From positions 1,728,280-1,792,279 of the forward strand of contig CM119265.1 in assembly GCA_051294375.1 (NCBI GenBank): a stretch of DNA of 64,000 nt, in the 5' to 3' direction. The notes under the pieces are model-generated. The model was given only the letters and a program-made list of their open reading frames with translations. It did not search any database and had not been told where the DNA came from. How positions within the stretch are numbered: position 1 is the first letter of the stretch; every line of letters begins with the position of its first letter. Shown one piece after another: positions 1-32,085 of the stretch. A program made the position numbers and the translations under genes. Source of the stretch: Paraspadella gotoi (lineage: Eukaryota > Animalia > Chaetognatha).

Positions 1-22
1 CTCATCAACAATTTATTTTTAG

Positions 23-2475: not shown

Positions 2476-2516
<41 letters not shown>

Positions 2517-3185: not shown

Positions 3186-5154
3186 GACTAAAAATCAACT
3201 CCAAGGCGTCGTGGATGTTCTTAAAATATTGTGTCGTTTTTATGCGCGCATTGTATTGCATACGATAAAAGCCATACTTGTTAATATTTTTCAGTGGTCC
3301 TTTCTGAACATGACATTGTTATGTCTTGTCTTCAATTCACCTGATTTTAAACTTTTCATTACTATCCAAATTAAACCTATGTGGAAGCAACAAGTTTCAG
3401 AGTAAGAATGACTTTATCTTTTGTTGAGATAGATTTTTATGGGTTTTTTTTTTTTTTTGTTTTGTTTTGTTTTTTCACGGGGCTCACCACGTGTGGACGC
3501 AACAAATAATAACAATAACGGTCAAAACTCAGATGCTAAGTCTATAACAATGGATATTTACAAAGTAAGAAGTTTGACCGTAAAGAGAAGAGCAAATAAT
3601 CGAAGGTAAATGAAAGTAAGGTCAATGGTTTGACCGAGGTTGCGTGTTGTAGTTGTTCGTCCACACTTTTTTTTTCAGGTAAGATAAAACAAAATTTTAG
3701 GAAGATATATAACGAATATGCTTAAATTGTCAAATACTTTATGTACGTATTTCTTACCTTTTTAACGCTTTTATTATGCATTCAAAAATCTTGCATGATT
3801 AGTTTAATTATCTTGACAATATCGTTAATAATTTTTTTTGTTAAAAGTAAGTTTTAATACAAATTAAGCCATACTAGTAACTTACCCGAGCCATACCTGC
3901 TTTCTTTAAAATTGTTTTAACCAAAATACCATGTACATCTTGCCAGAAGCATTATTATACTACAAATAAGTACTTCCAAAAATATTTTTAACTGTTATGT
4001 ATTAGAATGAGATTAAAAAATAAATATTCAAACATTTTTCTTCCAAACCACTTCATTTCGTTTATGAAAGATACAGTACGATATAACGAAATTCAACTTT
4101 TTAACTTCAAACGAATCGAAAACATAAAATGATGAAAACAAATGAATTGCCATCTCGATCACTATACCGTACTTATCATTTTACACACATTATCATCTTA
4201 TCATTTAAACTAATAAATTTCAGGGAAATCATCGCTCTGTTTTTCGAATCCTTTCCAATCCTTCGCCGACAAATGTAGAGACAGAGACACTCTCTCTCTC
4301 TCTCTCGATTCCATCGCGTGGGGATAAACGCTACCCTCAATTCCGTTGCCAAGACGACGAAAACTGTTTATTCCCTCGGGAACAAAGAAAACCGAAAAAA
4401 AAAAATTTGAACTCAAATTGAACTTGAATTGAAAATGAATTAAAAATGAACTGACTTTTCTTTCTCGCCGTAAACTTTATCAGAACGAACCAGCGTTCAC
4501 TTTTTCGCAACGGAACTACTCAAAATAAAATAGACAATGTAAATTGTAAAATAAATTAGAGTTACTCCCGCTTTGAAGACCGCGTTAAAACAGTTCTTCC
4601 CTCAAACACAATTTGGGATTAAAACTCACACAAGCGCCGCTGGAGGCCGAGATACAATTCAGTACCAAATCCAAAGTGAGAATTTATAAACCCAACGTAC
4701 AAAATATGAATCACTACAATTTACAATATTGAAAAAAAATGTAAAATGTAAAATTTTACATCTCCTGACGAGAATTATTGAATCTTATCAGTAGCTATGT
4801 ATAAGAAATTTTATTACTAACTATCCCTATCCATAACCCTAAACTATCCATAACTTATCCCTAACCCTAAACAGCTTCTAACCCTAGTCGCTCAAAAAAG
4901 ATTTAATTACAAATCAATTCTGTTCGCTACTGCTGCCGCCGCTGCTGCCTGCGCCGCTGCTGCCGCCGCCTGCAGCCGTAAAAACGAAAAATTTTTTAAA
5001 AATAACATCGTTTTTAAACTTAACAATTCTTGAAACCACATTAAGAAAACTATTTATTTTAAATTTTTTTATTCCGAATGCAATAAAACCTTCCCCCCCA
5101 AATTCCAGAATTCTCTTGAGTTCCATCTGCAAAGGCGTTGTCGCCATCAACGGA

Positions 5155-5899
5155 ATGGCGCCTTTCTGCAAGATCTCAACCGCCACCTTTCGGTCGCAAC
5201 ACGAGTTTTTACTCGGGGCTTTAATGGTCGCCGTCGTGATGTTCATTTGTTTAGTCCACGTCCAAGATTTTTCGTACGACATTGGCTACTACTGTAGATA
5301 TGGTATGCTTATTGCTTAATGTAGAATATTATTTTGTAAGAGAACTGGGAGTTCTAACCCACCATATGTCAGGGTCAAGGTCAAGGTCAGGGAAAAGATA
5401 GCTTATTTATTGAAAGAATAAATAATTTTGATATTGATTATTCCAATTGCATTTGTAGAATTTCTGGATAAGATAATTAAGGGAGTGGTCCTTTTATACA
5501 ATTGAAACATTCTTTGAAATATTATACCACTTCAATGGTAGAGAAGACGGGTACACTGAAAGTGAATAAACGATACCCTGACTGTGAGAGAGTCTTGATC
5601 GAAGGGTCATCTACGTCATTTTCTTGTGTGAGTGATGGAGGCCTTAAACCACCAAAGCCTGTCCAAAGTCAGGGAAAACATAACTAATTCATTGATTGAA
5701 TGGTCAATTTTTTCATATTCGTTGTACCAATTTTGTATATATTTGAATAATTGGCTGCAGTTTTAGACTAATGTAATGTATCATAACATTTAACATTTAT
5801 TTTTTCAGGGCAGAAGTTGAAGCGAATTTCGTTTCGTCGAAAAATTGGGAAATTTCCGGAAACTTCTGAAGAGAAATTGATGAGGTTAATGATGAAAAA

Positions 5900-5975
<76 letters not shown>

Positions 5976-6217
5976 ATGAAAGAAAGAGAGAAAGAAACAA
6001 AGAAACAAACATAAAAAAAAAGAAAGATCTTTTACCTTCTGATGTTAACGCTGTTTCTCAACCCAATCATTGCAATCACCATCAACTGCAGAAGGCGTTG
6101 CGGTGGCAAATGGTTGGTGACGGCGTCGAAGAGAAACTCACCTTCGGCGGCAGTGAAGAGATTCTTGAGGAGGAAAGATTGGTGCGTCGTCGTCGTTGGA
6201 GAGGGAGGGAATTCACA

Positions 6218-6300
<83 letters not shown>

Positions 6301-9205
6301 CGACCGACCAAATCCACTTTCCCTTCAGACTTTCTCCTCTTCCTCGGTCATCTTCGTCTCCGAAGAATCACAAACGAAACTCGGACGTCATTTCGTGAAT
6401 TTGATTCCAATGGAAAATTTGGCGGGAAAAAACTTGGGATTTCTGCTCGCGATCGCAAACGAGGCCGAAGTCATATGGGACTGGAGGAGGAGGAGGAGGA
6501 GGAGGAGGAGGAGGAGGAGGAGGAGGAGGAGGAGGGAAGGACGGAGGAGAGGAGACCGATCCTTAACTTCGACCTCGACGCATTTCTCAGAAATTCATCG
6601 GGCGAGTCTATATTTTTTGTCGTTTTTAGTTTTATCGGATCAATTTTAGCGTCTGTCTGTCTGTTTCTCTGTGTGCCTTTCCAAAAGACTAAACTTTCAA
6701 TCTCACCGACTCTCCGTCCTGCCGTTTGTCCTAATGTTTTTTTTTTTTCACTTTTTTTTTTTTCATTTTAATGATACAGCTGCCACCAAGTGGCGAACAA
6801 AATGAGATGAATCAGAAAAGAGAATTGAATTGGCTAGTTTTACAAAGTGGCATCCATTTATATATGAAGAGAGAGAGAAAATTTGGTTTTCATTTGTAAA
6901 TTAAATAATTATAAAAATAATTTTAAATAAGGTAAAATTTTACGACCGGCGTTGAAACATGGAGAGAAAAACCAATGGTACATAATTTTTAATTAATTCG
7001 TTTGGTGATTTTGTTTTCTTATTTTATTAATTATTTTCTTATTTTTTTCTTTTCATTTTTTTTAATTTTTTTTTCTTATTTTTCCTATTTTTTCTAATTT
7101 TTCTAACCAAGGATCTTCATTCCCCAATTTTCATTTTCATTTCATTTTTCCCTTCAGCCTTCAAAATCCAAGAACCGACAGTCAACTCGACTCATTCCTT
7201 TTTCTCTCCCGACGGACATGACGCCATCTGGAATCAAAGACTCAAAATCGTCAAGGGAGAATCGAGGACATTCGGTGTCCTGCAATTTCTGGCAGATGGA
7301 CGTGGGCAATCTCTGGCAGATGGTCGATGGGAGCGAATGCCGTCGGGACTTTTGCATTATCGGAAAATGTTACCAGGTGAGAAACATTTACGATTTATTG
7401 GCAATGATTAGCTAAACGGACAATATACAAGGCTCTCATTTCTGATCTTTTATTTCTAAATTTAATATTTAGCCTTAATATGTTGCCTAGTCTAAATTTT
7501 ATCCCTAACCCTAAACCACAATACCCAATGTTTAACCCAAAATCTTAAACCATATTCCCTATCCTTAATCTCAAACCCTAATCATTAACCCAATCCCTAA
7601 TCTTAAACCTTATTCCCTATCCTTAATCTCAAAGCCTAATCACTAACCTAATCCCTAATCTTAAACCATATTCCCTATCCTTAATCTCAAAGCCTAATCA
7701 CTAATCTAATCCCTAATCTTAAACCATATCCCCTATCCTTAATCTCAAACCCTAATCACTAATCTAATCCATAATCTTAAACTATATTCCCTATCCTTAA
7801 TCTCAAACCATAATCACTAACCAAATCTCTAATCTTAATTATCTAATTAATCCATAACCTAATCTTTAAGTTTAACCATAATTTCTATCTTAATGCGCTC
7901 TGGGAAAATAATTCCAAATAGAGCTTTTCGTGGAATTTCTATTTTCAGTAACAATATCAAACGAGTCTTCGGACGTGTGGGTTCGAATGGCACCGCTGCC
8001 ACCACATTTGAGAATATGTACACAAGGATTTCGATGTAAAACCAAAGTGGAATTTATTTCAGGCAGAAAATACGACAGAAGAAATGCGGTGACAATTTTC
8101 GAGACGGAGTGAATAAAAGTCTATTTAATAAATAAATAAATATAATATTTATCCAATGGAACCGGATCAAGGACATGTGCGAGATTCGCCGGTGGATGGA
8201 AGCCAATTGTCTCATTGGCTGATGCCATTGCTGACTCGACCAATGAGAGAGTCAGGATTTATTTCTTACGGATTCTTCTCGAGTCGTTGATCCGATTTCG
8301 ATTCCAATTTCCCTTTTTCCAGACTCCACCAAACCTACCCTCATGTCACCGACCACCATCATTCGAGTTCCTCGCGGAAGTCTCGCCCCTTACGATTCAG
8401 CCCTTCACTTCCGCCCAGCCTTCTGGGCTCTCTTCCGCCCTCCAACGGCGATCGGCGGCCGCGGCGGCGTCGGGCGATCGATCATTGCGCAGGCCACCTT
8501 CGAGGATCTGGGTTTGGCGGTTGGAGTCGTTGAAGGGGCTTTGGGGAGAAGAGGTTGGTTCGGAGTTGGAGGGGGATGGAATGAATGAATGAATGAATTA
8601 ATGAATGAAAGAATTAATGAATTAATGAATGAATACATGAATAAATACATGAGTGAATAAATAAATCAGAGACAAGTATGAACATTTAACAAATTACAAA
8701 ATAAATTGACTTGTAAATGAACGAATAATTGAAGTCTTTTTTTTAATCGATAGGAAAGTTTAAACGTCGAAAATCAATCAAAGACGGACGAGGTTCCCAA
8801 GCTCGCACGCGACCTCACAGAATTGCCCACCCTCGCGTCCACAAAGGGACCCGCGACCAGGATGTAAAGAGAATCGAGGCGCTGGCGGATTTCATCCTCT
8901 TCAATTACGTCAGGAGCGAAGAAGAGTGGATGCCGTCGACGACGACGACGACGACGATGACTCTGGCGAGGAAACTGGAACGCATCTGGGACGACCTGCG
9001 TCTCGTTCGATACGTAGAGCCTGAGGACGTGGAGGCGTTGAGAGGTTGGCTCGGAGCGTTGGAGGACGTCGGGTATAGATTTCCGATTTGGGAGGAGGAA
9101 GAAGTGACGAGCCGTTGCGCGGGAGGTTCGGGGTTGAAGGAGAGGCTCGTCGAGATGGCCGACGCGTCGGAGGATGTGGAGTCTTGGAAGAGAGGGTTGC
9201 GCTGA
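5155..9205 (+). CDS. STELLO/DUF288-like glycosyltransferase, type II membrane protein; degenerate, 1-nt frame break near 6484
   Basis: Exons 5155-5302, 5809-5884, 6092-6218, 6329-6601 (GC donor), 7158-7376, 8323-8553, 8754-9205. Signal anchor FLLGALMVAVVMFICLV, then KWLVTAS..DWCVVVVG, KNLGFLLAIANEAEVIWD, VPRGSLAPY..AFWAL..RSIIAQ and DVEALRGWLGALEDVGYRFP, in STELLO motif order. Confidence 0.75.
5479..5733. repeat. Interspersed repeat family B copy
   Basis: Aligns with 1812-2070. Confidence 0.8.
7500..7880. repeat. 58-bp tandem repeat (about 5 units) built from degenerate CCCTAA, intronic
   Basis: TTCCCTATCCTTAATCTCAAA at 7555, 7613, 7671, 7729, 7787; followed by GCGCTCTGGGAAAATA, which resembles the MITE TIR at 26180-26200. 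Confidence 0.85.
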
Positions 9206-9829
9206 AGACGGGGTTGAGTTGATAGAGGGTCAATCGGGTGGGATTGGAAAGCTTGTGAGTTTAACTTATTTGACAATATCCACTGACCAGTGAATATGGA
9301 ATCGGGTCAAATACTGAAACCAGGATGTAAATAGATATGAGGAGCGGTGAACTGTTAGCTGTGAACTGTTAGCTATGAGCTGGGAGCTGTGAACGGTCAA
9401 CCCGTGATTGAGAAAGGATAAAACTCACCGAAGGAAAATGATTCCCAGGAAACATAGAAAATCTCTTCGTGATTCGTGAATTCACGAAAATTCCATTTCT
9501 GTGTGAAATTCCATTTTTTTATGAACACGTGAAACAATCGTGAACAATCGTTGATCTTGTAATTAAATTATATTTGTTTACATTAAACAATATAAATTAT
9601 TTTTAATACTACTGCTACTAGGTATAGTTTGAGCAAGGCGCAGATATACATATTCCTATTAGGTTTTTGAAGTTTGTTTTAAAAATTTCGACAAAAACAT
9701 CATATGACTTTTGTTTGTTACCCAAAACTTTATCGGTTTGCATCGGCAAATCATCACAAAAGATGTCGTTTTAAAACAGAGAGCAATAAACAAAAGATAT
9801 TAGCATTTTTTTTCATTTCATCGAAAAAA

Positions 9830-10441
9830 TATAGTAATTATAGTAGGGACCAACTCCGGATATAATATAAAATTTCGACTATTAACAAAGTTTTTTTAGT
9901 TGTCTTGAATAAATATTTAAGCAATCTTTTTCCAAAAAAAATTATATTATACGTCTTGATTAATACATTAAATATTACTTGTCTTTTTTCGCATTATCAA
10001 ATTTTTTTTTTAATCTTAAAATTTTTTGATGGATTCTGATAGAGCATAAAAAGTTAAACAAGAAATATAATTATAGGTTTTAAAAATTCCTACGTTTTCT
10101 AAGTGAAAATATAAAAAAACTAATAAAATCATCGAAAGATGATGATAATGATGATTTTTTACAGTTTTTCTTATTTTTGACTCACTGATCATAAAAATAT
10201 TTAAAAAAGAATTATACTTTGTGTGGACAACTTTTTATGAGCTATCTGAATCTAAAAAATAAGTTTCGCCTTTCCTTTCTATAAATAAATATTAAAAAAT
10301 TAATGATTTGGGTATAGAGCCATATAAGAAATGTTTGGTCCATCGAAAGTTAACTTAAAAATGTATAAATTTTCTTTTGAGCATGTAATCATTCTAATTT
10401 TTGACTCACCCCATTGAGTGGGGCTACCCCTAATTATAGTA
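9830..10441. mobile_element. AT-rich internally palindromic non-autonomous element (foldback/MITE-like), family D
   Basis: GATTCTGATAGAGCATAAAAAGTT ... AACTTTTTATGAGCTATCTGAATC inverted arms; related arms at 16107-16671 and 18053-18646. Ends approximate. Confidence 0.55.
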
Positions 10442-10611
10442 GATTTTAAAGTTTTTTCTTTTTTTTTCTCTCTCTTTTTCTACTTGACCCATTATCTCGA
10501 TTCATGAAGGAAACCCTAAGTTGTACACGTAATACTGAGTCTCTCTCTCTCTCTCTCTCTCGATTCATGAAGGAAACCCTAAGTTAGAGCCTGAGTTGGG
10601 CTTTCTCCACG

Positions 10612-10670
<59 letters not shown>

Positions 10671-10966
10671 TCGGACCTTACCTCCCTTTATGGCTCAGGA
10701 TTTGACACAGTCAAAACTAAAAACAGGTTTCTGACTCAAAGTCGTAAAAATAATAAAACGCTCGCTCTCTCTCTCTCGTTCAAACGGCGAAAAACGGAAA
10801 CATTAAAAAAAATAATAATTATTAAAAATCAGCGTTCCTTCCATTTTAAAAATGCTGATATCGTTGCTCTAGCAGTATTTTAAATAATTGATTAATTTAA
10901 TGTCTCCCACAAAAAAAAAACTTGGAATTAAGACTGAAAGACTCGTCGAAATCTGAAACTCAAAAA

Positions 10967-13900
10967 ATGCGTCCCTTCGTGAATCGGTCCCACCGTTTAG
11001 CCTCACTCGAAACTCACGATTTAACTTACCCTCGTTCCCACGCCGCGACTTTCTCACATTTACGAGGCGATCGAGCAAAAACTTACCCCAAAATTTACTT
11101 GAGAATTAAATTTATCGTCGCCTTCGTTTTCTTGGTCGAACCCGTGACGGTTTTTGGATCGGGTAAGTTTGACATGACCTGACTTGACATGACCTTACGC
11201 TTCTATTGATAAAATGTAAAGTCCAGACGACCGTAACTCAGATGCTCTTTTAATATAGGAGATATCGACATACGTCTCTTTCTCTCTTTTGCGGTCATTC
11301 CAGATTCTGCTCTGAAACGGGACTCTTCTCTAAAATAATAAACATTTGTGGACGCTTAGTGGATTCTTTGTGTGGATTTGTTTATTTACTATTGCTTCTT
11401 TTATTATTAGTTAGTATATTATTATTGTCTGTATGAATATCTATATGCTTTGATTATTTTATTAAGGTACCATTAAATATCAAGACTCCAAGTGGATAAG
11501 AAACTTATTATAAACTTTACGGCGCCAGCGGTCCCGGTCTTTAGTCCAGTTTCTCTCCCGACTTCTTCTCCCCCCGCTAGGTCGAGGAGGGGGGTTTCTT
11601 TCAAAAACACTTTTTTTAACGTAATTTGTGACTAGAATAATAGATAAATAATGAATAGGTTTTGTTTACTGAAATGATTTTCTAACAAGAACAATATGCC
11701 TAATAAAAGAGTGAAGAGACGGTAATAATTGTTGTATTAGTGACAGAACCGTTCAATATAAGCAGTTAAGCAGTCCCTGAGCTTCGGATCAGGCTGTAAC
11801 ATTGTGTTACAGGCGGGTTAAGCTTCATCTTTCATCCGAAAGACAACCCGAACGTTCGTTTCTCTACGCATTATATGAGATACCATTTTAAATATAGCTA
11901 GTTATTACAAAGGCTTAACATTTTCATACATCAATCTAAATTGTATTAGTATAAAATATAAGCCAATTTGAAACGAAGTTTTGAAATTTTTAGAACACTA
12001 TCTTACAATGATACATCGATATCAGTTAAATAGTAATTAAATTAGACAGTAAATTAAACTGTATTTAATTAATATAAAACTCTTTTTTCCCCCAGTGTTG
12101 ACGTGTTTAAAAGAAGCAGGAACGGTCTATGAAGGCCACGATTTCTACAACGGAAAACCTTTGCCTTATTCTCTGAGAGAATGCGAGCAATATTGTCTCG
12201 CCATGAAAAATTGCGCGGGTAAGCGATGGAGGGGTAAGGGATTTGGGGTAAGCGATAAGGGGTGAGGGATAATGGGTAAGCGATAATGGGTAAGCGATAA
12301 TGGGTAAGCGATAAGCGTTAAGGGGTAAGCGATAAGGGATAAAGGGTAAGGGGTAATGGGTAAGCGATAAGGGGCAGATTTAGCGGGTTGAGCATGCCAT
12401 GGGTTACGGGTTAGGAGGTAAGAGGGTTAGAGTAGTAATCATTGTAATTACTGTAATGGGTTTGTGGTTTTTTAGGTTTAAACGTAATATTAGGGTTAGG
12501 GGTTACGGATTAAGCTTAGGGATTAGATTACGTTTCTGGATTAGAGAATGTGTTTAAGATTTGTTATGAGATTAAGGTTAGATATTAAAGTGAAAATTAA
12601 ATTCTGGGAATCAGGAACGGTTATGGGCGCTTTCAGAAAATAGTGATAATAGGGTTGCATCGGCACGGGGGCTAAGGCTGTGGTAATAGGCAATGGTCAT
12701 AAGCAATGCAGTCTTAGGAGTAAATCTGAAGTTTTTTGACTTTAATTATCCTTTACGAACGGAGTTTTATTTTTGAAAAAAATAATTGTTAACGTCCTAG
12801 TTAATTCCTACAGACCTGGCCATTAGTGGCCTCTCCTACGAGCATCCGTGTCCTTTTTTGAAAAACTTAACGAAAGGCGTAACCCGTTTTGCGGTTTAAT
12901 TTTTTGTTTAAAAGGTTTCGTCTCCTACGAGAACAATTTTTACCGAATGTGTAACTTCAAAACTCGCATCGACTCGAAACGAAAACAACAGCGCGCAAAT
13001 TATACGGCGGGAATTTGTAAACAGGAAGAACCGCCAGGTATTCTATTAATTATATATACTAACCAATTGGCATTAACCTTTTATTTGGCTTTAATTTTAA
13101 GTACGTCGAAACAGTAAATCTCGAGATCCATCTTTGCAACCCCGAGTTAACATTTAAATACAATTGAAGCAATTTATACATCATATTATTCCACGTAATT
13201 GATAGGAAAGCCAGGTAATCTGTGTGTGGATAAACTAGACCGTTAGTCTTGATTGAAACCTTGCAGGGTCTTGCTATGTCATTAATAATGACTCATTATC
13301 TTGTAAGAGTGATGGAGGCCTCAAACCGCCAAAGCCTGTCCCAAGTCAGGGACAAGATAGCTTACTTATTAAATGAAAAATTGATATTGAAGAGACGGTA
13401 ATTATTGTTATGTGTTAGTGACAGAACCGTTCAAAATAAGCAGTCCCTGAGCTTCGGATCAGGCTGTAACACCATGTTACAGAAGGGTTAAGCGCCCCGT
13501 CCCTCTTAACTGCTAGGCGGCCACCGGGCTAGAACCCCAGACCTTTGGGTTGGGAGGCGAATGACTTGCCTCTGGCACCAATGGCCGCTGATGATTTTAG
13601 TCCACCAAAATATATTGGTTGTATCAATTTGTTGATATGAACTCTCGCTGTCGTCTTTTGAGACTTGCCATAGGCATAGAAGACACCTATTCCCTTCGCC
13701 CAACTAAAACCTCTATACAGATCTGGTCCAAAAAAAGTTTAATAGTTATGATGAAAGCATTTTGTTTCATTCTCTAAAAAACAATATTTTTTAAGATTCA
13801 GTTAATTAATATATCGGACAATCATTTACTTCTTGCACCGCAAATAAAAAGGGTTCAGCTCCTACCAAATACATTTTATAATTTTTTTGATTTTGTCGAC

Positions 13901-14532
13901 TGTTGTAGTATTGTACTCCAAAATGTCCTTTTTCATCCTTGACCAGATACTTTTGATGTTTTAGTCAGGCGAGTTTTAAGGCTAACCTTTTAGCACTTCG
14001 ATCTCATTTACCTCATCATATTTTTTGGTGGCTTTGGCTTAGTATTAAAAATTATATTCTTTATAAAAAGCCGCCAATTTATTGTTGAAAAATTGGCGAC
14101 AATTTCTGAAACCCCGTCTCCATTAAATTTAAATCCTCTTTATCTTTTCCCTCAGAACCCCCGACGACCTCTTCCGCGGATTTAGCCATTTCCCAAATCA
14201 TTTCTTTCGACGCCCGCCTCGCGGCCTTCGACGAGCGGCTCCGGACTCTCGACTCTCGCCTCCATTCCGTCGACGATCAACTCCGCCCCGCCGCGTGGAA
14301 TCGGCCGCCGCTGCAGCAGAGCCGCATTTTCCGCGGCGTCTGTCCTCTCAGCGCGGCGCTGCTCTGCCTCGTCGGCGTCGGCTGCGTATGCGTCGTCGTC
14401 TGCCGCGTGCGATCGAAAAGAAGAGGAGTCGAGAGTTGTCGGGGGCGGGAGGGGGAAGAGGAAGAGGAAGGGGTAGTGTATGTGGCGAAGGAAAAAGGGA
14501 AGAATTTATTGGGGGACGAGGAGACGGGTTAA
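10967..14532 (+). CDS. PAN/apple domain + coiled coil + single-TM membrane protein
   Basis: Exons 10967-11162, 12096-12218, 12915-13037, 14156-14532 (all phase 1). CLKEAGTVYEGHDF...CEQYCLAMKNCAGF...CNFK...AGIC matches the 6-Cys PAN pattern; heptads FDARLAAFDERLRTLDSRLHSVDDQL; TM LSAALLCLVGVGCVCVVVC followed by RVRSKRR. Start codon uncertain. Confidence 0.75.
11715..11822 (-). mobile_element. SINE family A, 3' fragment
   Basis: Reverse complement of the 3' half of 21483-21711. Confidence 0.7.
12217..12372 (+). repeat. About 14-bp tandem repeat GGGTAAGCGATAAT starting at a splice donor
   Basis: About 10 GGTAAG-containing units directly after the exon end at 12218. Confidence 0.8.
13157..13375. 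repeat. Interspersed repeat family B copy
   Basis: Aligns with 1812-2070. Confidence 0.75.
13390..13607 (-). mobile_element. SINE family A copy
   Basis: Reverse complement of 21483-21711. Confidence 0.8.
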
Positions 14533-14736
14533 GGGGGGGAAAGGTGTGTGGGATTTGTTGGAGTGTTGAAATAAAAGTAATTTTATACAGCTGGAATTAC
14601 TTCTAGACTTTTGAATATTATTTTGTTGTTTCACTTGCCAATTAAAATATTTTACAAAAGTGCATATTTTTACGTATTTGAACTATGAAATGCGATTTGG
14701 CCCCAACGATAATATTTAACCTTTTCGGCAATCCTG

Positions 14737-15210
14737 TTTTTCGTTGCGCCGCGAGTTCTCGCGGAGCAACTCTATGAGACACTTTAGGCGTCGGTCGGTC
14801 TGCCGGTCAGTTGGTTAGTATGTCTGTCCGTCGGTATGTCTGTCCGTCGGTCTGTCCCACTTCCGTTAAAAATGCTGATAACTTGGTTATGGTTTAATTA
14901 ATTTAGTTTATATTTGGTGTGATAGGAAGTTACAATAAGACCTTTAATGTGCATATGTATCATACTTGTCTTCACGTGATTACCTGAAAAGCAATCACAT
15001 GACCCAAAATTCAATGCGGCTTAAATTAAGTTGCAATTTTGTGTATTTTTGTGAAATTGAATATTAGTGACTCCAGTCCAAAGCTACATTGTTTTTAAAT
15101 GTAATCACTTGGAAAGACAGTCACTCCGGCGCAACACACAACGTTTTTAGTTGCGTCGCGAATACTCGCGGAGCAACTTTATAAGTGACTTGTCGGTCGG
15201 TCGGTCGGTA
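14737..15210 (+). mobile_element. Helentron-associated/DINE-1(HINE)-like non-autonomous element, plus a second head at 15144
   Basis: T-rich start, subterminal palindrome GTTGCGCCGCGAGTTCTCGCGGAGCAAC and (GTCG/GTCY)n microsatellite; copies at 28541 and 50340-50442(-). Confidence 0.6.
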
Positions 15211-16006
15211 TTCTTAATTCTTATAAACAATAAGGAATAAATGACATGATAAGTAAAAAGAAAAATAACGCAACGCAACACCTTAATGAGTTTTTTTTAA
15301 TGAGTCATAAGTTCAATTTTGTGTCCAGATTATCGGTTTTAAGCCGTAAATTACGGATTGTGATAAGCATTTATCATACATTCAAAAGTCTCTTTCTCAA
15401 ACTCTGTGGTAGCCAGAGTAAAATTGGTTTTAAATTCTTACCCGAGTCTTTTTGCAATTTTTTTTTTATTACGTATTAATTATTTTTCGTGTTTTGCTTT
15501 ATTTGCTTTTTTTTGGTTGTTTGGTTTATTTTATCGAAATTTCTTTGTCGCTTTTTTCAAAATCGCATCTCACATACGTCCACCCCCTTTTCTGCATCAC
15601 GTGATAATCATATTTGTGTGGGGGAAAAAACGTGTGATTAATTTGGGGATTTGAGGATTTCCTAATTTAAGATGAAAGATTTGGATTTTTAAGTTTAATA
15701 ATTGTCAATGTAGAATTGATGAGCATTAACTAATGGATTAAGTCATGGATTTTTGTGAAAATCTATTTCAATCGTCGATTATTTGTAAGTTATAACAATT
15801 TGATCTCAATACAGTGAATTTACGTACATGTCTAAACGAGCATAATACTTTATTTACTCTCAAGCCAAGGGTCTCAAATTTCGAATAGTAAGTGTTAAAA
15901 CAGTTTTGTTGACAAATTAAATGGCTACAGTATAGCAGTTCTTTAATAATACTCTGCCAATGCTAATAAGCATAAATGGAGATTGAATAGTAAAAAATGG
16001 TATAAA

Positions 16007-16770
16007 TGTGGATAAAGCGCTAAGTGGGCTGAAGATGACTATGCGCAACTTTTTTAACCCCTCTGGTAGCCATGGAACGGGTCCTGGGCTTGGAACCAGG
16101 CTTGAGCCGTAGGGGGAGACTAACTCAGTAAGGTGGTTAAGAAATTGAATTCAGCACCTGCTCAAACGAAAATTTAAACATTTTTTTAAAAATTTGAATA
16201 GACAAAATTTTTTTATATTACTCCATGCTCCATATATTAATTTTTTAATATTTATTTATAAATAGGAAAGGCTAAAAATGTTTTGGGGATTTTTTTATTT
16301 TAAAGATCAAAGTATATTTTTTTTTCGATATTTTGATCATAAGTATGTGAAAAATATGAAAAACTATTTATAATCATCATTTTTCGATAATTTTATTACT
16401 TTTTCTTAATTTTGACCAAGAAAACATAAATATTTTCGAAAGTTGTAGTTAAATTTTTTATTTAACTTTTTATGCTCTTTCAGAATCCATCAAAAAAAGT
16501 TAAGATTGATTAAAAAAAAATTTTATCATTATATAGTAATATAGTAATTTTAATAGGACCAATAAAAGCATTAAAATCGAACTTTTTTAAAAAAAATATT
16601 TTTTTACCTAAAAGTAGACTTCAAGACTAAAGTTTTGAACCCCCGCCCCTATTGAATTTAATTTCATAGTAGAGGGTTTTCCACGCCCCCAAGGCGGTCG
16701 TCCTCACGCTTCCCTCAGGGTAGGTACCGGGTTGGGATTGAACCCGGTACCTCGTGGTCCTGAGCTGATG
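16007..16770 (-). mobile_element. SINE family C copy interrupted by a family D insertion (16107-16671)
   Basis: 16007-16106 and 16672-16770 join (CTTGAG...GGTTTTCCA) to match the reverse complement of 20268-20597. Confidence 0.7.
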
Positions 16771-17172
16771 AATACAAATGAATTAATCTTAAATAACGAA
16801 AAATGGATCATTCATATGCTTATAATAATATTATGGGCTAAATTAATGACTTTTTTTTAAATTACGTAGGAGACAGTTGTGTACTAAAACCGCGAACCGA
16901 GCGCCGAGGAAATCGTAAAACGTTTAGAATTTTGGGAACAAAATAGCGTCGCTCGATGATAAAGAGAAAGCTTTGAAATTGGAATAAAATGAGCAATTAA
17001 GATGAATTTAAACTTCCGAACGAACTTTGTTCCAATGAATTGATTAAAATTAATCCACCTCGTATCTGCTGAATTATTTTTAAAGAACAATTGGCGAAAC
17101 TGGAGTAAGAACTTTTAAAGTTCTGTGAGTCCGAGCTGACCTCGTGAACGGGGGCTCCAGCTGAACGAAAAG

Positions 17173-17182
17173 GTCACGTGAT
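17173..17182. promoter_or_regulatory. CLEAR-like E-box GTCACGTGAT upstream of the PAN-M6PR-tail gene
   Basis: Close to the TFEB/MiT CLEAR consensus GTCACGTGAC; partial GTCACGT sites at about 17290 and 17527. Short motif, could be chance. Confidence 0.3.
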
Positions 17183-17337
17183 TACACCGAGTTTAGACGA
17201 GACAAAACGAAATAAAGGAAATAAAAACAGAATGAAACAGCGCGCGGAATCTATTTAATTGTTAATAAAATAATAAATTTAAAATCATTCGTCACGTCTT
17301 TTTTTTCGTAGTATTAAAAAGTTTTTCTCTCTTTTTC

Positions 17338-17375
<38 letters not shown>

Positions 17376-17586
17376 CGAACTTTGTTCCAGATTTGTGATC
17401 TCGAATTAATTGCCTTCACTCCGAAGGGTTAAGAAACTTTGACTGACTTTTAATTTTCAATTCAAGATTCAGAAGAAACAATATAAACTTTTTTAAATTT
17501 AAATTTCACGAATTTTTGTGAATCGCGTCACGTATTTTGATTCCCGCGTCTAACGTTGCCTCACTTCGCCTCACTTCGCCTCACCA

Positions 17587-20500
17587 ATGACCATGACGAA
17601 CTCACTTCTTTCTTCAGCCTCGAAAACTTACCTTTTATCTCGCTTTATTCTCCACTCGACGACAACACGCCTTCTTCTTGGTCTCATGCTTTTAACGTTG
17701 GTCAGAGTTTCGGGTCAGCCCAGGTCTCATGGTAAGGTCAACTGGGTTCAACTTGACCAAAAGACCATAGTGAAACGACCCTTTTTGATAATAGGGAATT
17801 TTATAATATATATGAATAATACACAATATTACACATTGTATATATGTTCATTTTAGACATAGATTATATTCTCTCAGTGACCAAACCGTTTTTGAGCTAA
17901 ATTGACCACAATGCATAAGTTTTGATCGGACTGGATCGTATTTTGACCAACAACTATGGTAACGAGATGACCCCATTTTTAACCCATTTTAAAATCAGAT
18001 CAGGCTTGAGTCATTGATAAATCATCGTAGTAGACATAGTTCTGAACACTGACCAGTGGCCGGCACAGGTTGAAAACTAGAAGTTCACTCAAATAAATAA
18101 TGGTTAAGTGACTGTTAGAGAATATGAAAAAAAAAATTTTTTGAAAATTTATCTTATTGATTAGGGCACGGAAGCATTTAAAGATTATTTTATTACTATA
18201 TAAAGTTTAAAATTTGTTTTTAATTTTTCAATTTTTGTTAATAGATTCTGGTAGAGCTTTAAAAGTTAGATAAAGGTTATTAATACAACTTTTTAAATTT
18301 TTTTGTTTTATTGATAAAAATTTTAAAAAACTATAAAATTCAGCCAATAATGATGATGATGATCATTTTTAAGATTTTTTTAATTTTAACCAATTTATTG
18401 TCAAAATTTTAAAAAATTGTAGTACTAACTTTCATTTAACTTTTCAAGCTCTATAGGAATTCGTTCTTAAAAAATAAAATTTAATTATTTTTTTTGTCAT
18501 TTGTTATATATTAATAAATATTTAAAAGCTTTAGTGAAACAACCCAATTCAACTAATTCAAAAAGTTGCATTGAAAATCTATTTAGTAATAGAAGGAAAA
18601 AAGAAATTTTTTTGAGAGAACTAGAAGTGACCGCGGACCACTGGCCAGTCTTGACCACATTTTGTTTTAAACTGATCACTATATTTTGGTCCCTTTTTTG
18701 TTTCCCTCTTAGGATTTTGTGTTGCGGAGAGAGGAATCGAATATGACGGAACCGGTTTTGGGAAACCGATTCCTTATGATATTGATGGATGTGAATCCTA
18801 TTGCCTGGCGACGGAAGACTGCGAGGGTGAGACCGTGAAAGAGAGAGAGAGAGAGAGATAGATTATATATATCACAACATCTAAACCTCATCAGGCTTCA
18901 TAATCACAGACGGTTTATGTGAGATGCAGAAAAGCATCGACTCTGAAACCAGAAGAGAAAATAATCACACAATCGCTGGACTTTGTATTCGTGAAAAACC
19001 CAAAGGTAAGTCACGATTTGGTAATTAATTAATTAATTGTAAGTCGTTCTATTCACAGTAATGATCTATTATTGTCAGGCTCTCTTTGTCACTGTCTGTT
19101 ACAGTTTGTCATTTTGGGTTCTTCTAAAAATTTTAATAAAGATCTAAAGAATTTGTTAGATTATCATTAATATCATTATTCTAAAATCTACATCGTTCAT
19201 TCCTCAGGTTTTTGCCTTTTGGACAGCGGGGTCGACTACTTGGGTCACGATTTAGGTTCATCGATTCCAGACTCCAATGTGAATCTTTGTGAAAAGTCTT
19301 GTCTCTCGGACGACGAATGCGTTGGTAATATTTTGCATTTGTTTTATATATTTTATATAATATTTTTGATCTGTTCTAGTTAGTTTTTATACAAGGTTTG
19401 TGAAAAGGATGTGAAAGAAAACAAAAAAGTGCCATCTCTGAAACCTATAAAATCTTAAAATATACCCATGAGACTCTTAATGCGGTAGGTCATCAAAATC
19501 CGATCAAAGCAGGATTTTTTTTTAAATGCTAATTAAAGTTTTTGAACGAATATATGTAAAAACTATCCTTTGGGTTATTTGCCTTCTTAAAATATTTAAA
19601 AAGCAACTATCCGCTATTGATCAGGAGTCTAGCTTATTGATTCTTAGTAGACAAATTATACTTCTTTTTAAACTTATATTCTTCATTTCTGTCTTTCTTT
19701 TTATTTTCTCATTTTAAATCCTGCCTACTCTTTTATTCTTTTGTATCCTTCTCTCTTATTCTCCTTACTTTTAATTTCTTCCTCTCCTTCTAAAAAAAAA
19801 AGGATTCGTCGTCGACCCGAAATTCGTTTGTCGATTGAAATCAAAATTGGACGCAGACATGAGGATCGAAAAAGCCAAGTTTATGGCGGGAATTTGTGTG
19901 GGCGAAAAACATCCGACGCCTCCGGCCACTGGTGAGATTTTATGGAGGAGATTTATTTGATATCATTTATTTTTCTTTCATTTATTCTATTTATTGACGA
20001 TTTAAATTAATTGATTGATTGATTAGAATTTGTGAATTTTACTGGTTACCTATTGATTGGAAGATGAAATATATTGATTACATGATTAATTTGGTATTGA
20101 CTAATTGATCCTTTGTTTGCTCGATTCCATTTCGGTGATTTCTCCCCGAGCCTCCGATCCAGTTCCATCTCTGTATCTCCTGTAATGATATATTTGATAA
20201 TTCGATTTATTGATTAAATATACTACATATACTTTTTCGTTAAAGGCTCTGTAGTCGTGAACTGCAATATGTTCACCCAGCCTATGATCATAACACCAAT
20301 CGTGACCCGGTGCCTCATTGAGTAATACCGTCGGCTCATGACGATTAGGTACCGAGATCGATCCCCAATTGTACCGAGATCGATCCCCAATTGTACCGAC
20401 ATCGATCCCCAATTGTACCGAGACCGATCCCCAATGGTACCTTCCCTGCGGGAAGCGTGAGGACGGCCGTAAACCGCCTTGGGGGTCTGGAAAACCCTCA

Positions 20501-21077
20501 AGCCTAATTTCAAGCCCAGGACCCGTTCCATTGCTGCTGGGGGGGGCACGGAAGATACGGATAGTAGTCTTCAGCCCCACTTAGCGCTTTATCAACTGCT
20601 CTAATGATAAATTAATCGATTGATCAATTAGATATAGATTAATATGTTTTACTAATATTGATACAATTGATGCGATCTTCCTCCCTTCTCCTCCTCCTTT
20701 CTTTTTCACCAATAGACCTCTCCCCCCCTTCCTCTCTTTCCCGCGGAATCGTCGGCGTCATCGTCGTCGTCGTCGTCTTCACGGTCTACTGCATCGTCGG
20801 CGTCGTCTTCAACAAGTTCCATCGCGGCGCCGTCGGATCGGAGATCATTCCCAACAGAGAGTTTTGGTTCGGCTGTCTCAGCCTTTTGGCTCGACCGTGC
20901 CGTCCGGGGCCCGGCTCGGCTTACGACGCCGACGATCCTGCGGCGACGGCCTCGACGGAACGGTTGATGGGGGCGGCGCGGCGCGGTCCCGACGTCGCGG
21001 CTGCTGCTGCGCCGACCAAGGAGACGGGCCGGGCCCGGTATTCTGGGGCGGGAGAAAAGACGGGGACCCCGATCTGA
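17587..21077 (+). CDS. Type I membrane protein: signal peptide + 2 PAN/apple domains + CD-M6PR/ATG27-like TM and cytoplasmic tail
   Basis: Exons 17587-17731, 18713-18826, 18895-19005, 19208-19324, 19803-19931, 20716-21077 (all phase 1). PAN1 FCVAERGIEYDG..CESYCLATEDCEGF..CEMQK..AGLC; PAN2 FCLLDSGVDYLGHDL..CEKSCLSDDECVGF..CRLK..AGIC; TM/tail VVVFTVYCIVGVVFNKFHRGAVGSEIIPNREFW. Confidence 0.8.
18053..18646. mobile_element. TIR element (CCAGTGG..CCG / CGGACCACTGG) with a family D palindromic interior
   Basis: Imperfect terminal inverted repeats; internal arms GTAGAGCTTTAAAAGTT / AACTTTTCAAGCTCTAT. Confidence 0.55.
20268..20597 (+). mobile_element. SINE family C, longest copy, with a 22-bp B-box unit repeated 4 times
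   Basis: GTACCGAGATCGATCCCCAATT at 20349, 20371, 20393, 20415; flanks match the other family C copies. Confidence 0.75.
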
Positions 21078-22690: not shown

Positions 22691-25042
22691 TTAATAACTC
22701 AAAACAGAACCAATTACAGTTATTATTAATGTTAGCAAATTAATTACGTTATAATTGTACTTTTGTTCCCTATCCGCAGATTCAAGTAGATTGTCATAAA
22801 CCTCATTTAGATCTCTTGTAATGTTGTCAGAAGGCGTGTTATAAAATAGTTTATCAATAAACTTATCTAAAAAAACAAAATTAATTGACTCAGATGGTAA
22901 TTTTGTGGAAAGAAGAATTTGCTTATGATTGTTTAAGTAGATTGAGTCATAATATAAAGCAAATTCATGATAATTAGTTTGTTTGCATTTTATGGAAAGT
23001 TTAAAAAGCGTATGAAAGCTAGTCAAAAATACCATTAAGATTATAAAAATGGTTTTGACAAAAAGTTTATATTTTTTTAAAAGTTTTTCTGTGATCAAAA
23101 AAAGCCATACCAATATGGGTATAATAGAAACACTTGAAACCAAGTCGTAATACTCACTGTTTAATAATAGGATAATAATTTGATGGGTGTAATATTCGTG
23201 AGGCTCAAAATACCATGGTAAAGATACACAAGATAAAATGACGAAACGAAGCTTTTGACGAATAATGATTGCTTGTTTTACAAGCATGGACCAAATTGGA
23301 AAAGAGCAAGCAATTAACCCCAAAAATCCAAACATCTTTTTTTCTCCAATTGACAAGCAGTTAAGAGATTTACCAGCATACACTTCCAGCATTAGCAAAA
23401 CAAAGTATGATATCCAAGAGGTATAAGCAAAGTTGGTGTACATGATAAAGCTTCTGGACATTTTTGTTTTTGAAGAAAAGAGCATTTCAAAGTTTATTGA
23501 ACTCAGATAAAATCTTTCGCCTTGAAAAAATAAACCCGAATTTTTACTCGCAACATCGTGATTTAGCGTCGTAAGTATATTGATGGAGGTTATAAGCAGA
23601 GGACTGAGAGCGCCCAGCACAAAATTAATCAAGTTAACAAATTCTTTTCTAATAAAGAAAAGAGATGCGTTGTATAAAAATCCCAGCCCGAGATCGGACA
23701 TCAACATGATTAAAACGGTTAGATGGTCAGGTTCGAGAAACTTGTAGTTTCCGAGTTTATAACTAAAAACATCATCCGCTAGAATTACGGTTGGATCTTT
23801 GCGTTGCAAAGCGTGGCAAGACATAATCACGGAAATGGGGACCATTTGTTCCCATCTCACGCTATCGACAAATCCGGCCGTGACGAAACATCTACGAGGG
23901 GACAAGACATCTTTGTGAATGTAGATGTGCGGGGTCATTATTTTCTTCTCGCTAATAGCTATCCACATTTCCAGATGATGGAATTTGATGATTTTAAATT
24001 TGTCAATGACAAAGAAGATGGAGCAAGTCATTGCGGACCAAGATATCATGACTAGACATTGAGCAAAAGAGTTTTCTTTCCCATTTTTCGCTTGTTTGGT
24101 GATGAAATTGGTCACCTGATCTCTCAACTCTGTGATGGTGAAAACTCTCAAGAGAACCAACGGAGTGAGCAGAATTAGCCAAAGCGACCATTTCAAAGCC
24201 CAAACATAAACGAGGTAAATGTAGATGACCACTCCGAAGACTCCTTGGACCACACCGATGATGCTCAAAACCAAACGCCTTCCACTCAACCTGGAGGGAC
24301 TTCGAACATCCACTGTCGCTTTGGCGAGACCCACGATAGAGAGCGAAAAGGACACCAAAGTTTCATAATTGTCCAAAGGCCAACTGCAGGTCCTCAGTTG
24401 CAGCATGTAATTTAGCACCTTTGACCCGCAAGTGCAAGGGCTTGGGCTGATAAATGTCGACCCATCCGAATTCAATTTAATTAGGGAATAATTTTTAATC
24501 TTCTCGGTATTATTTTGGTCGGGTAAGCAGAGCTTGGTGGTGCCGCTCGTCATAGCTAAGATGATGGCTGCTGCTTGTAGGAGAATTTGCGGAAAAGTTT
24601 CGAGCAAAAGATGCAGCAAATCAAAAGTAAAAACGAGGCTCCTTTTGGACAAAGACAAAGACGACGATGACAACGATTTGGCCACCAACTCGGAAGATGA
24701 CGACGTGACTGTCAAAGTTGCCGAATACTCGTTATGTTGATCCAATCTTTCATCGATCGAGGCCACGGAGTTGGCGAGTCCCGCAAGGCACAAACACATT
24801 GTCACCATCTTACGCCAACAGTGGCGCCAAAGTCGCGGATAAACCGGCGCCTCTTTAGAGAATTGGCGCCATGCCAATGAGGCAGAAATGACGCCATGTG
24901 CCACGAGGACGACGCCCATAGCGACGCCGATGTAGCGCTCGCCGTAGAAATCTTTTCTGAGAAATAGGTAAGTCGTGCGAAGGTCAGTAAAGACATCGGC
25001 GACGTTAAGGATGATGATGATGACTACGATTTTGGGATTCAT
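22691..25042 (-). CDS. Intronless XK-related (Xkr scramblase-like) multipass membrane protein, about 783 aa
   Basis: Single 2.35-kb ORF from ATG 25042. N-terminal LNVADVFTDL and LLETFPQILLQ resemble the XK-family DxxxD and ExxPQxxLQ motifs; many hydrophobic segments. Confidence 0.65.
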   Translation of the reverse strand: MNPKIVVIIIILNVADVFTDLRTTYLFLRKDFYGERYIGVAMGVVLVAHGVISASLAWRQFSKEAPVYPRLWRHCWRKMVTMCLCLAGLANSVASIDERLDQHNEYSATLTVTSSSSELVAKSLSSSSLSLSKRSLVFTFDLLHLLLETFPQILLQAAAIILAMTSGTTKLCLPDQNNTEKIKNYSLIKLNSDGSTFISPSPCTCGSKVLNYMLQLRTCSWPLDNYETLVSFSLSIVGLAKATVDVRSPSRLSGRRLVLSIIGVVQGVFGVVIYIYLVYVWALKWSLWLILLTPLVLLRVFTITELRDQVTNFITKQAKNGKENSFAQCLVMISWSAMTCSIFFVIDKFKIIKFHHLEMWIAISEKKIMTPHIYIHKDVLSPRRCFVTAGFVDSVRWEQMVPISVIMSCHALQRKDPTVILADDVFSYKLGNYKFLEPDHLTVLIMLMSDLGLGFLYNASLFFIRKEFVNLINFVLGALSPLLITSINILTTLNHDVASKNSGLFFQGERFYLSSINFEMLFSSKTKMSRSFIMYTNFAYTSWISYFVLLMLEVYAGKSLNCLSIGEKKMFGFLGLIACSFPIWSMLVKQAIIIRQKLRFVILSCVSLPWYFEPHEYYTHQIIILLLNSEYYDLVSSVSIIPILVWLFLITEKLLKKYKLFVKTIFIILMVFLTSFHTLFKLSIKCKQTNYHEFALYYDSIYLNNHKQILLSTKLPSESINFVFLDKFIDKLFYNTPSDNITRDLNEVYDNLLESADREQKYNYNVINLLTLIITVIGSVLSY

Positions 25043-25379
25043 GGTGATGTGATATGTTGTAATATGAGATAGGATATGATAGAATATGATATCATAAGAT
25101 GGGAAGGAGTGAAGGAGAAAAAAAAGGAATAAGTAAGACAAGGGAGGAAGAGAAGGAAATAATGCGAAATGACTTTTGGAGTCTTAATATCTTAGCACAA
25201 ATGGAACATTTATTGACAATGCCGAGGGAATATCGTAAGAGATTGCTTTTTGTCCTATTATTTACCTTATTTCGTCTTTCTGAACGATTATGATTACGAT
25301 TAAGAATGATACAGCATCTTAGATCACATCCACATCACATATAAATAATATAAATAATATAAATACTGATTGCTTATTT

Positions 25380-25935
25380 TACAAGCATGGAGAAAATAGG
25401 AAAAGAGCAAGTAATTAATTCCAAAAATCCAAGCATCATTTTTTCTCCAATTAAGATTTGGTTGCCAATACTGAAGACGACGATGGGACTGACAAAGTTA
25501 CTAAATTCTTTGTTCGTCAACCGATGCCAATGGGTTAGCGATACCTGCAAAGCACAAAATTATTGCCACAGTCTCCAAAGTTGAGGATATACCGCCGCCT
25601 CTTTAGAGAATTGGCGTCATGTCAACAAACCGGAAATGACGTCATGTGCCACAAAGACGACGCTCATAGCAACGTAGCATTCGCCATAGAAATATTTTCT
25701 GAGAAATAGGTAAGTCGTGCGAAGGTCAGTAGAGACATCGGCGACGTTAAGGATGATGACCACAATAGAGACGACGATTTCGGGATTCATGGTGATGTGA
25801 TGTGTCGTAATATGACATAGGATATGATAGAATATGATACCATATGATGGGAAAGAGTGAAAGCGAAAAAAAGGAATGAGAGAGAGGAGGAGGGGGGAGA
25901 AAGAGAAGGAAAAAAATGACTTTTGGCTTCTTAAT
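25380..25935 (-). pseudogene. Internally deleted duplicate of the XK-like gene
   Basis: 25590-25935 aligns with 24845-25190 (upstream region + first about 65 codons, with indels); 25380-25455 aligns with about 23280-23355. Confidence 0.75.
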
Positions 25936-25950
25936 ACGTATATTTTCTCA

Positions 25951-26200
25951 GCTTTATTTTCCCAAAACGCCTAATTTCATTTAAATTCAAAAAGATAGTT
26001 TTTCAATACAAAAATAAAATTAGATTAAGGCTAAGGATGGGATTAAAAATTAAGTATAGGATTATAGTTAGTTTTTAGGGTTCGGGATTTTGGTTATAGA
26101 TTAGGTATTAGGGTTAAGGATAATTTTAAGGTTAATAAATTTGATTAGGGATTAGGTTAAGGGTTTGATAACAGAATTGAGGCGCTTTGGGAAAATAGAG
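25951..26200. mobile_element. MITE with about 22-bp TIRs enclosing degenerate TTAGGG repeats
   Basis: GCTTTATTTTCCCAAAACGCCT ... AGGCGCTTTGGGAAAATAGAGC. Confidence 0.65.

Positions 26201-27370: not shown

Positions 27371-32085
<4,715 letters not shown>

What the first reader, a model, noticed from the sequence alone, without database searches (positions are those of the whole stretch)
17587..21077. PAN/apple domains fused to a CD-M6PR/ATG27-type TM and sorting tail: candidate new cargo receptor
Seen: signal peptide, two 6-Cys PAN domains, then VYCIVGVVFNKFHRGAVGSEIIPNREFW...RYSGAGE..TPI*. Known: CD-M6PR has YxxGGxxYxRxVxGAKGxEQFPHxAFW..YRGVGD, ATG27 has a similar YxxxG..GxExIPNxxFW, and both normally carry a luminal MRH domain; PAN domains bind glycans or proteins. 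Inference: phase-1 exon shuffling put PAN in place of MRH, making an endosomal/lysosomal sorting lectin with a ligand other than M6P. A CLEAR-like GTCACGTGAT lies about 400 bp upstream (weak support).
Basis: partly seen in the sequence, partly recalled or inferred. Interest (0 to 1): 0.75.

Follow-up and report, generated by a model that had tools for sequence, protein, structure and literature searches.

The report
PAN receptor with borrowed sorting tail
A spliced gene, likely from an animal, joins two cysteine-rich modules predicted to be PAN binding domains to the membrane anchor and inner tail of the mannose-6-phosphate/Atg27 sorting-receptor family in place of that family's usual sugar-binding domain, so it likely carries a different cargo between cell surface and endosomes, although it lacks the family's standard tyrosine and dileucine sorting signals.

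Summary
Real. Six exons, five phase-1 GT-AG introns, 325 aa; contigs of one probable RNA run skip all five introns, including the PAN-to-membrane joint (one joint borderline). The last exon passes Pfam's cut-off for Man-6-P_recep; 105 of 106 HMMER relatives are M6PR/ATG27 proteins. The two 6-Cys repeats are PAN-like only at sub-threshold scores; folds failed. There is no MRH domain. A tandem neighbour carries the same PAN exon pair on an unrelated last exon, supporting exon swapping. An unnamed protein pair (P0041/P0107) also joins one PAN-like domain to this tail, so the design exists at least twice; shared origin is unresolved. Best reading: a recycling or endocytic receptor for a non-M6P ligand; a surface protein with a decayed tail is close behind. 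The scan had not noted this on other DNA. New variant; interest 0.5.

The parts
17587..17731 (+). Exon 1: start codon and probable signal peptide with a long n-region
   Evidence: hydropathy; cleavage site by eye, rule recalled; joint 17730>18712; upstream in-frame stop at 17551
18713..18826 (+). Exon 2: first half of PAN-like repeat 1 (4 Cys)
   Evidence: no Pfam hit of its own
18895..19005 (+). Exon 3: second half of PAN-like repeat 1 (2 Cys); one N-glycosylation sequon
19208..19324 (+). Exon 4: first half of PAN-like repeat 2 (4 Cys)
   Evidence: PAN_4 E 5.5e-4, below cut-off
19803..19931 (+). Exon 5: second half of PAN-like repeat 2 (2 Cys) and Pro/Thr linker
   Evidence: spliced to exon 6 in a contig, 129 letters on the short side
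20716..21077 (+). Exon 6: stalk, membrane helix and whole 88-residue cytosolic tail in one exon
20748..20810 (+). Predicted transmembrane helix, with the family's Tyr and Gly
   Evidence: hydropathy 2.8; invariant columns; coordinates
20811..20867 (+). Juxtamembrane block of the M6PR/ATG27 family, ending in the Phe-Trp pair
   Evidence: FW in 99 of 110 relatives
20898..20900 (+). Cys 11 residues after the conserved Trp; possible palmitoylation site (a second Cys at 20874-20876)
   Evidence: same offset in 28 of 110 relatives, including named CD-MPR-like proteins; palmitoylation inferred
20952..20969 (+). Near-dileucine stretch (Ser in place of the acidic residue, Leu-Met); weak lead only
   Evidence: such a stretch arises in 7% of tail shuffles, pattern chosen after seeing it
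21039..21050 (+). Tyr after basic residues, with Ala where a sorting motif needs a bulky residue; possible decayed motif
   Evidence: not significant
17173..17182 (.). Palindromic E-box/CLEAR-like motif 414 bases upstream of the ATG; not specific to this gene
10967..14532 (+). Tandem neighbour gene A (272 aa): leader exon, one PAN-like repeat split at the same phase-1 site, and an unrelated last exon with a membrane helix
   Evidence: joints; model; PAN_4 E 3.2e-4; 37-39% identity to the two repeats; no similarity of last exons

Best explanation
This spliced gene joins two predicted PAN domains to the membrane anchor and juxtamembrane tail of the M6PR/ATG27 family, and it likely works as a type I receptor that binds a non-M6P glycan or protein and cycles between cell surface, endosomes and Golgi using the retained juxtamembrane block. 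Shown: gene structure, splicing, tail homology, absence of MRH, absence of canonical Tyr and dileucine motifs. Inferred origin: a PAN-membrane gene like neighbour A was duplicated in tandem, doubled its two-exon PAN unit and took on a new last exon from an M6PR/ATG27-type gene. That exon lacks two introns seen in one genomic relative, which hints at a processed copy or intron loss. Inferred function: retrieval from endosomes would depend on the juxtamembrane block and a palmitoylated Cys; without YxxPhi or DxxLL the protein would sort less like a Golgi-to-lysosome hydrolase carrier and more like a recycling or scavenging receptor.
For: Splice joints. Pfam above cut-off; 105 of 106 HMMER hits are M6PR/ATG27 proteins. 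The ectodomain clusters with none of the 103 ectodomains of the main (MRH) cluster, only with P0041/P0107 (E 4e-8 at Z=1000), whose domain hits PAN_1 at E 6.6e-4 and 5.3e-3 and beats 1000 of 1000 shuffles against a profile of the three window repeats (24.8 bits, best shuffle 11.8). The conserved block is kept ungapped although the distal tail has diverged, which suggests selection on it. In yeast Atg27 the tail residues 222-237 are needed for Snx4-dependent retrieval (PMC5940307, passages); that they correspond to this block is my inference, not aligned here. The CD-MPR membrane helix contributes to lysosome avoidance (PMC2120581, abstract). Introns: L003 has predicted GT-AG introns inside the helix and after the block (by eye), and 17 of 143 proteins read into Val at that second site.
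Against: No YxxPhi, DxxLL or [DE]xxxL[LIM] in the tail, against 78 and 5 of 110 relatives with terminal YxxPhi and DxxLL (near-duplicates and incomplete proteins are among the 110). The LVKDG-type stretch after the Trp is degenerate. In CD-MPR the essential palmitoylated Cys is Cys34 and Cys30 is dispensable (PMC2199859, abstract); by recalled numbering the kept Cys matches Cys30, and there is no Cys four residues later. PAN identity never reaches a Pfam cut-off and no PDB sequence match was significant. No orthologue was found to test conservation. RNA support is one run of one study, as contigs. Ligand, localisation and tissue are unknown.
Confidence: 0.5

Rival explanations
1. A cell-surface PAN recognition or adhesion protein, like neighbour A, that merely borrowed a membrane anchor; the sorting function of the tail has decayed.
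For: Canonical motifs absent; long branch of 1.06 in the tail tree; distal tail Ala/Gly-rich and unlike any relative; neighbour A shows PAN exons on another anchor with no such tail; the C-terminus fits a class I PDZ-binding pattern (pattern recalled, untested).
Against: The juxtamembrane block, Phe-Trp and the helix Tyr/Gly are intact and still pass the Pfam cut-off, while the repeats have diverged to 35% identity, which suggests an old gene in which the block was kept.
Confidence: 0.3
2. One reading: a true Golgi-to-lysosome cargo receptor for hydrolases or other luminal cargo, co-regulated with lysosomal genes, perhaps replacing the ordinary CD-MPR/Atg27 in this lineage.
For: Tail homology; weak placement beside named CD-MPR-like proteins (SH-aLRT 76); near-dileucine stretch resembling the mucolipin-1 signal listed in PMC5297682 (passages); CLEAR-like box upstream; fly LERP is an MPR orthologue without conserved M6P-binding residues (PMC4610224, start of abstract). 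P0041 keeps a terminal YxxPhi and fits this reading better than the window's gene.
Against: No GGA- or AP-type motif; the near-dileucine arises in 7% of shuffles; the box is not specific; no genome was available to test whether an ordinary M6PR/ATG27 gene is missing.
Confidence: 0.14
3. An artefact: mis-assembly, read-through, or a mis-spliced join between a PAN gene and a separate M6PR remnant.
For: One run only; record 1 carries 1190 upstream letters that were not placed, so contigs of this run can be chimeric or the 5' end is not understood.
Against: Genome and contigs agree on all exons, joints are GT-AG and in frame, the ORF is open for 325 codons with a polyadenylation signal at 21171, and no MRH-like exon was seen upstream of exon 6.
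Confidence: 0.04

Closest known systems
[quoted passage not shown]
   Same: Type I layout, stalk, membrane helix and juxtamembrane block with Phe-Trp; Cys at the same offset; a long tail.
   Different: No MRH domain, so no M6P site; two PAN-like repeats instead; no YxxPhi, no terminal DxxLL, no second Cys four residues on; distal tail not alignable.
Atg27 and the ATG27-like single-MRH proteins of animals and protists (Pfam PF09451)
   Same: Best pairwise matches to the block are these proteins (18 of 31 identical columns for P0006, P0008, P0095).
   Different: ATG27 score is below cut-off; no MRH; tail after the Trp is 69 residues against a median of 29; the terminal YxxPhi (AP-3 signal in yeast, PMC5940307 passages) is absent.
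Unnamed PAN-like plus M6PR/ATG27-tail proteins P0041 and P0107 (source label 'merc')
   Same: Signal peptide, 6-Cys PAN-like domain (25-29% identical to the window repeats), stalk, family helix and block.
   Different: One repeat, short tail, terminal YxxPhi in P0041; their tail nests among MRH-bearing proteins; one origin with the window gene neither rejected (p-AU 0.244) nor shown. Not a described family; predicted proteins without a contig.
PAN/apple-domain membrane proteins (Pfam PF00024, PF14295), including neighbour gene A
   Same: Cys pattern and sub-threshold Pfam hits; identical exon split in gene A.
   Different: None of the described ones that I found carries an M6PR/ATG27 tail (paper searches).

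Membership tests
P-type lectin / CD-MPR | Luminal MRH domain | tested here: not met
   No Pfam M6PR/ATG27/CIMR hit on exons 1-5; ectodomain unlinked to the 103-member main cluster
P-type lectin / CD-MPR | Membrane helix and juxtamembrane block with Phe-Trp | tested here: met
   PF02157 27.4 bits, cut-off 25.4
P-type lectin / CD-MPR | YxxPhi, dileucine and DxxLL signals in the tail (PMC5297682 passages) | tested here: not met
   0 matches; only a near-dileucine stretch
P-type lectin / CD-MPR | Palmitoylated tail cysteines (Cys30, Cys34) | tested here: inconclusive
   Cys at Trp+11 present, none at Trp+15; numbering recalled; modification untested
P-type lectin / CD-MPR | Binds M6P and sorts hydrolases | not testable with these tools
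   needs binding and trafficking assays
ATG27-like | PF09451 above cut-off over the luminal domain and tail | tested here: not met
   22.8 bits against 27, profile 199-235 of 261 only
ATG27-like | C-terminal YxxPhi | tested here: not met
   absent here; present in 78 of 110 relatives
PAN/apple domain | Six-Cys pattern over about 75 residues (pattern recalled) | tested here: met
   6 Cys per repeat, aligned across five domains
PAN/apple domain | Pfam PAN score above cut-off | tested here: inconclusive
   Half-domains only could be scanned: PAN_4 20.4 and 21.1 bits against 27 on about 30 of 51 positions; homologue PAN_1 19.9 against 21.4
PAN/apple domain | PAN fold | tested here: inconclusive
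   Both models of the homologue failed, pLDDT 38.0 and 36.6; no fold search run
PAN/apple domain | Glycan or protein binding | not testable with these tools
   needs a glycan array or pull-down

The most novel reading that the evidence does not exclude
The M6PR/ATG27 membrane-and-tail exon is a portable trafficking module that has been grafted more than once onto non-MRH binding domains: twice onto PAN domains (this gene; P0041/P0107) and once onto another Cys-rich domain in Thecamonas (P0060). This gene would be the first genomic example, caught beside its PAN donor, of an undescribed class of M6P-independent sorting receptors, and would show that the juxtamembrane block alone can route a protein through endosomes.
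Probability: 0.3. Interest if true: 0.72.

Novelty: new variant of a known kind. Interest (0 to 1): 0.5.

Why it matters
How invertebrates sort lysosomal and endocytic cargo is poorly defined (PMC9109462, passage). The most conserved part of the M6PR/ATG27 family across eukaryotes in this sample is the helix and juxtamembrane block, and this gene is a natural chimera that keeps that block while lacking both the MRH domain and the standard sorting motifs. It therefore gives a direct test of what the block does by itself, and, with its tandem neighbour, a clear case of a receptor built by swapping the last exon. The limits: one unidentified organism, no ligand, and domain shuffling of PAN modules is in itself common.

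Tried and rejected
No whole genome was held, so presence of an ordinary M6PR/ATG27 gene and further PAN paralogues outside the window is open; inside the window only three PAN-like repeats and one tail were found. Word-indexed search with the last exon for longer proteins: 0 of 2731 candidates (weak evidence by the tool's own note). Searches with P0041 (20 of 41 candidates) and a tail profile (33 of 4498) gave no further PAN-tail protein; both cover only proteins up to about 330 residues. JGI scan with the last exon: 0 of 593 stretches; with an alignment: 6 loci of 343 stretches, none examined showed a PAN domain, only L001 and L003 were read in detail. The ESM Atlas could not be searched. Mixed alignments of half-domains with whole proteins were misaligned and dropped. 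Two structure predictions of the homologue failed, so no fold search; the spliced window protein itself could not be folded or scanned whole against Pfam. PDB sequence searches gave nothing significant. Tail trees were uninformative: 104 rows by FastTree grouped the gene with other long branches; 40 of those 104 rows, 66 columns, left 19 of 37 branches open. High G+C of exon 6 (0.67) is no sign of foreign origin, since gene A's last exon has 0.63. Runs X2 and X3 covered only low-complexity spots. No holder is on record as RNA. Not-in-print claim rests on: 0 papers with all four terms; 4 papers with two of three terms, none with PAN plus M6PR; listings only, nothing on this architecture; subscription journals and supplements, including those of PMC12460157, were not searched or read.

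Full report
Observation. The window holds a six-exon gene on the + strand from 17587 to 21077. All five introns are GT-AG and phase 1 and the joined frame is open for 325 codons. No whole genome was held. One public run, guessed to be RNA, holds the stretch. Its contigs skip all five introns: four joints are listed and the 68-base intron is skipped between consecutive pieces of one record; the listed exon pieces show no differences from the window. The joint that matters most, exon 5 to the membrane exon, has 129 letters on its short side. The record with exons 1-4 carries 1190 further letters upstream of 17437 that were not among the listed pieces on 1-18000; they cannot lengthen the protein, because an in-frame stop lies at 17551 within the covered leader.

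The last exon. It passes the Pfam cut-off for Man-6-P_recep over profile positions 161-217 of 254 and hits ATG27 below cut-off. A HMMER search of 1.84 billion representatives gave 106 hits at E up to 0.001, all on the helix and the block behind it; 105 of 106 hit one or both of those families and none hit PAN at that threshold. The homology is therefore real, but covers only stalk, helix and about 20 cytosolic residues. Among 110 fetched relatives of 150 residues or more that carry the block (near-duplicates included), 99 have the Phe-Trp pair, 78 end in YxxPhi and 5 in DxxLL; the window protein has Phe-Trp and a Cys 11 residues after the Trp (28 of 110) but no YxxPhi, DxxLL or [DE]xxxL[LIM], and its tail after the Trp is 69 residues against a median of 29. 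A near-dileucine stretch exists but turns up in 7% of shuffles.

The ectodomain. Two repeats of about 75 residues have 6 Cys each and 35% identity. Only half-domains could be scanned: exon 4 hits PAN_4 at E 5.5e-4 and the matching exon of the neighbour at E 3.2e-4, both under the cut-off. PDB searches gave nothing significant and both structure predictions, made on a homologue, failed. PAN is thus the only supported name, but it is not proven. MRH is excluded: among 116 ectodomains of 70 residues or more (115 fetched proteins plus this one), 103 form one cluster, read as MRH from their Pfam matches, 10 stand alone, and this one links only to P0041 and P0107.

A second instance. P0041 and P0107 are unnamed predicted proteins, 87% identical. 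Each has a signal-like start, one 6-Cys domain that hits PAN_1 at E 6.6e-4 or 5.3e-3, and the family helix and tail. A profile of the three window repeats scores the P0107 domain 24.8 bits against a best of 11.8 in 1000 shuffles. Their tail nests among MRH-bearing proteins; holding them in one clade with the window gene is not rejected (p-AU 0.244; 40 of 104 rows, 66 columns) and not shown. They have no contig on record, so an assembly chimera cannot be excluded, though two variants share the junction. A named Thecamonas protein, P0060, also has this tail behind a different Cys-rich domain. Three further searches found no more PAN-tail proteins.

Origin. Gene A, 3 kb upstream on the same strand, is spliced and has a leader exon, one PAN-like repeat split at the same phase-1 site, and a last exon with a helix that shows no similarity to exon 6. 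Its repeat is 37-39% identical to the two here. The same two-exon unit therefore sits on two unrelated anchors side by side, as expected from tandem duplication and last-exon exchange. One genomic relative, L003, has predicted introns inside the helix and just after the block, and a phase-0 intron before the last luminal strand rather than a phase-1 intron at the stalk (read by eye); 17 of 143 proteins read into Val at the second site, the mark of an unspliced GT. Exon 6 has neither intron, which hints at a processed copy or intron loss; with one genomic comparison this is a lead only.

Promoter box. GTCACGTGAT lies 414 bases upstream. It occurs 3 times in the window (0.09 expected) and its core 6 times (0.63 expected), the others 3' of gene A or far downstream. 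It is enriched in this DNA in general and does not mark this gene as lysosomal. The CLEAR consensus is recalled.

Mechanism. Most likely (0.5) a type I receptor for a non-M6P ligand that recycles through endosomes by its juxtamembrane block. Support from print is indirect: yeast Atg27 needs tail residues 222-237 for Snx4-dependent retrieval and a terminal YSAV for AP-3 (PMC5940307, passages); the CD-MPR helix and tail residues 34-39 keep it out of lysosomes (PMC2120581, abstract); Cys34, not Cys30, is the essential palmitoylation site (PMC2199859, abstract); MPR tails use YxxPhi, dileucine and DxxLL (PMC5297682 and PMC9109462, passages). The role of the Phe-Trp pair in CD-MPR is recalled; I did not find it in the passages read (PMC9988951). 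Rivals: a surface PAN protein with a decayed tail (0.3), a true hydrolase sorter (0.14), artefact (0.04).

Organism and novelty. The DNA is from an intron-rich eukaryote, likely an animal; an earlier unreviewed note suggests an arrow worm, which I did not test. Passages of PMC12460157 describe frequent tandem duplication and trans-splicing in one chaetognath and do not mention PAN/apple domains or lectins in the main text. Paper searches found no description of a PAN plus M6PR/ATG27 architecture (listings only), and the scan's own notes had none. It is not a member of the P-type lectins or of the ATG27-like family, since the defining MRH domain and terminal motifs were tested and not met; it is a new variant built from their membrane module.

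Noticed in passing
window 17437 (record 1 of run X1): The contig carrying exons 1-4 has 1190 more letters upstream that do not continue into 17000-17436 and were not among the listed pieces on 1-18000; chimera, distant exon or trans-splicing, unexplained.
   Followed up: partly
window 10967-14532 (+): Gene A: one PAN-like repeat, a probable coiled-coil stalk and a Cys/Val-rich membrane helix with an acidic tail; its 65-residue leader exon is long for a signal peptide; no Pfam hit on first or last exon.
   Followed up: partly
window 22694-25183 (-) and 25620-25970 (-): An uninterrupted 830-codon frame for a multi-pass membrane protein without a significant Pfam hit, with a 75%-identical partial copy of its 5' part about 780 bases away.
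   Followed up: partly
protein P0060: Thecamonas protein of 408 residues with 22 Cys in a non-MRH-looking ectodomain and the M6PR/ATG27 helix and block.
   Followed up: no
protein P0139: Tail relative whose 160-residue ectodomain stands alone in the clustering and does not look like MRH by eye.
   Followed up: no
window 27557-60125: Ordinary neighbours by Pfam on single exons: an SH3 domain (27557-28051 +), cytosolic carboxypeptidase N-terminal domain (44944-45543 -), glycosyltransferase 28 C-terminal domain (54966-55301 -), glutamine synthetase (57252-57812 +, weak), Fcf2 (58889-59206 -).
   Followed up: no
window 4241-5900 and 6877-9531 (+): Two further spliced genes (joints) without a clear Pfam assignment; a weak TIM21 hit at 7031-7408 (E 5.8e-4).
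   Followed up: no
window 20340-20440: Short tandem repeat of about 22 bases inside the last intron, next to sequence that many contigs of run X1 match, so probably a dispersed repeat.
   Followed up: no
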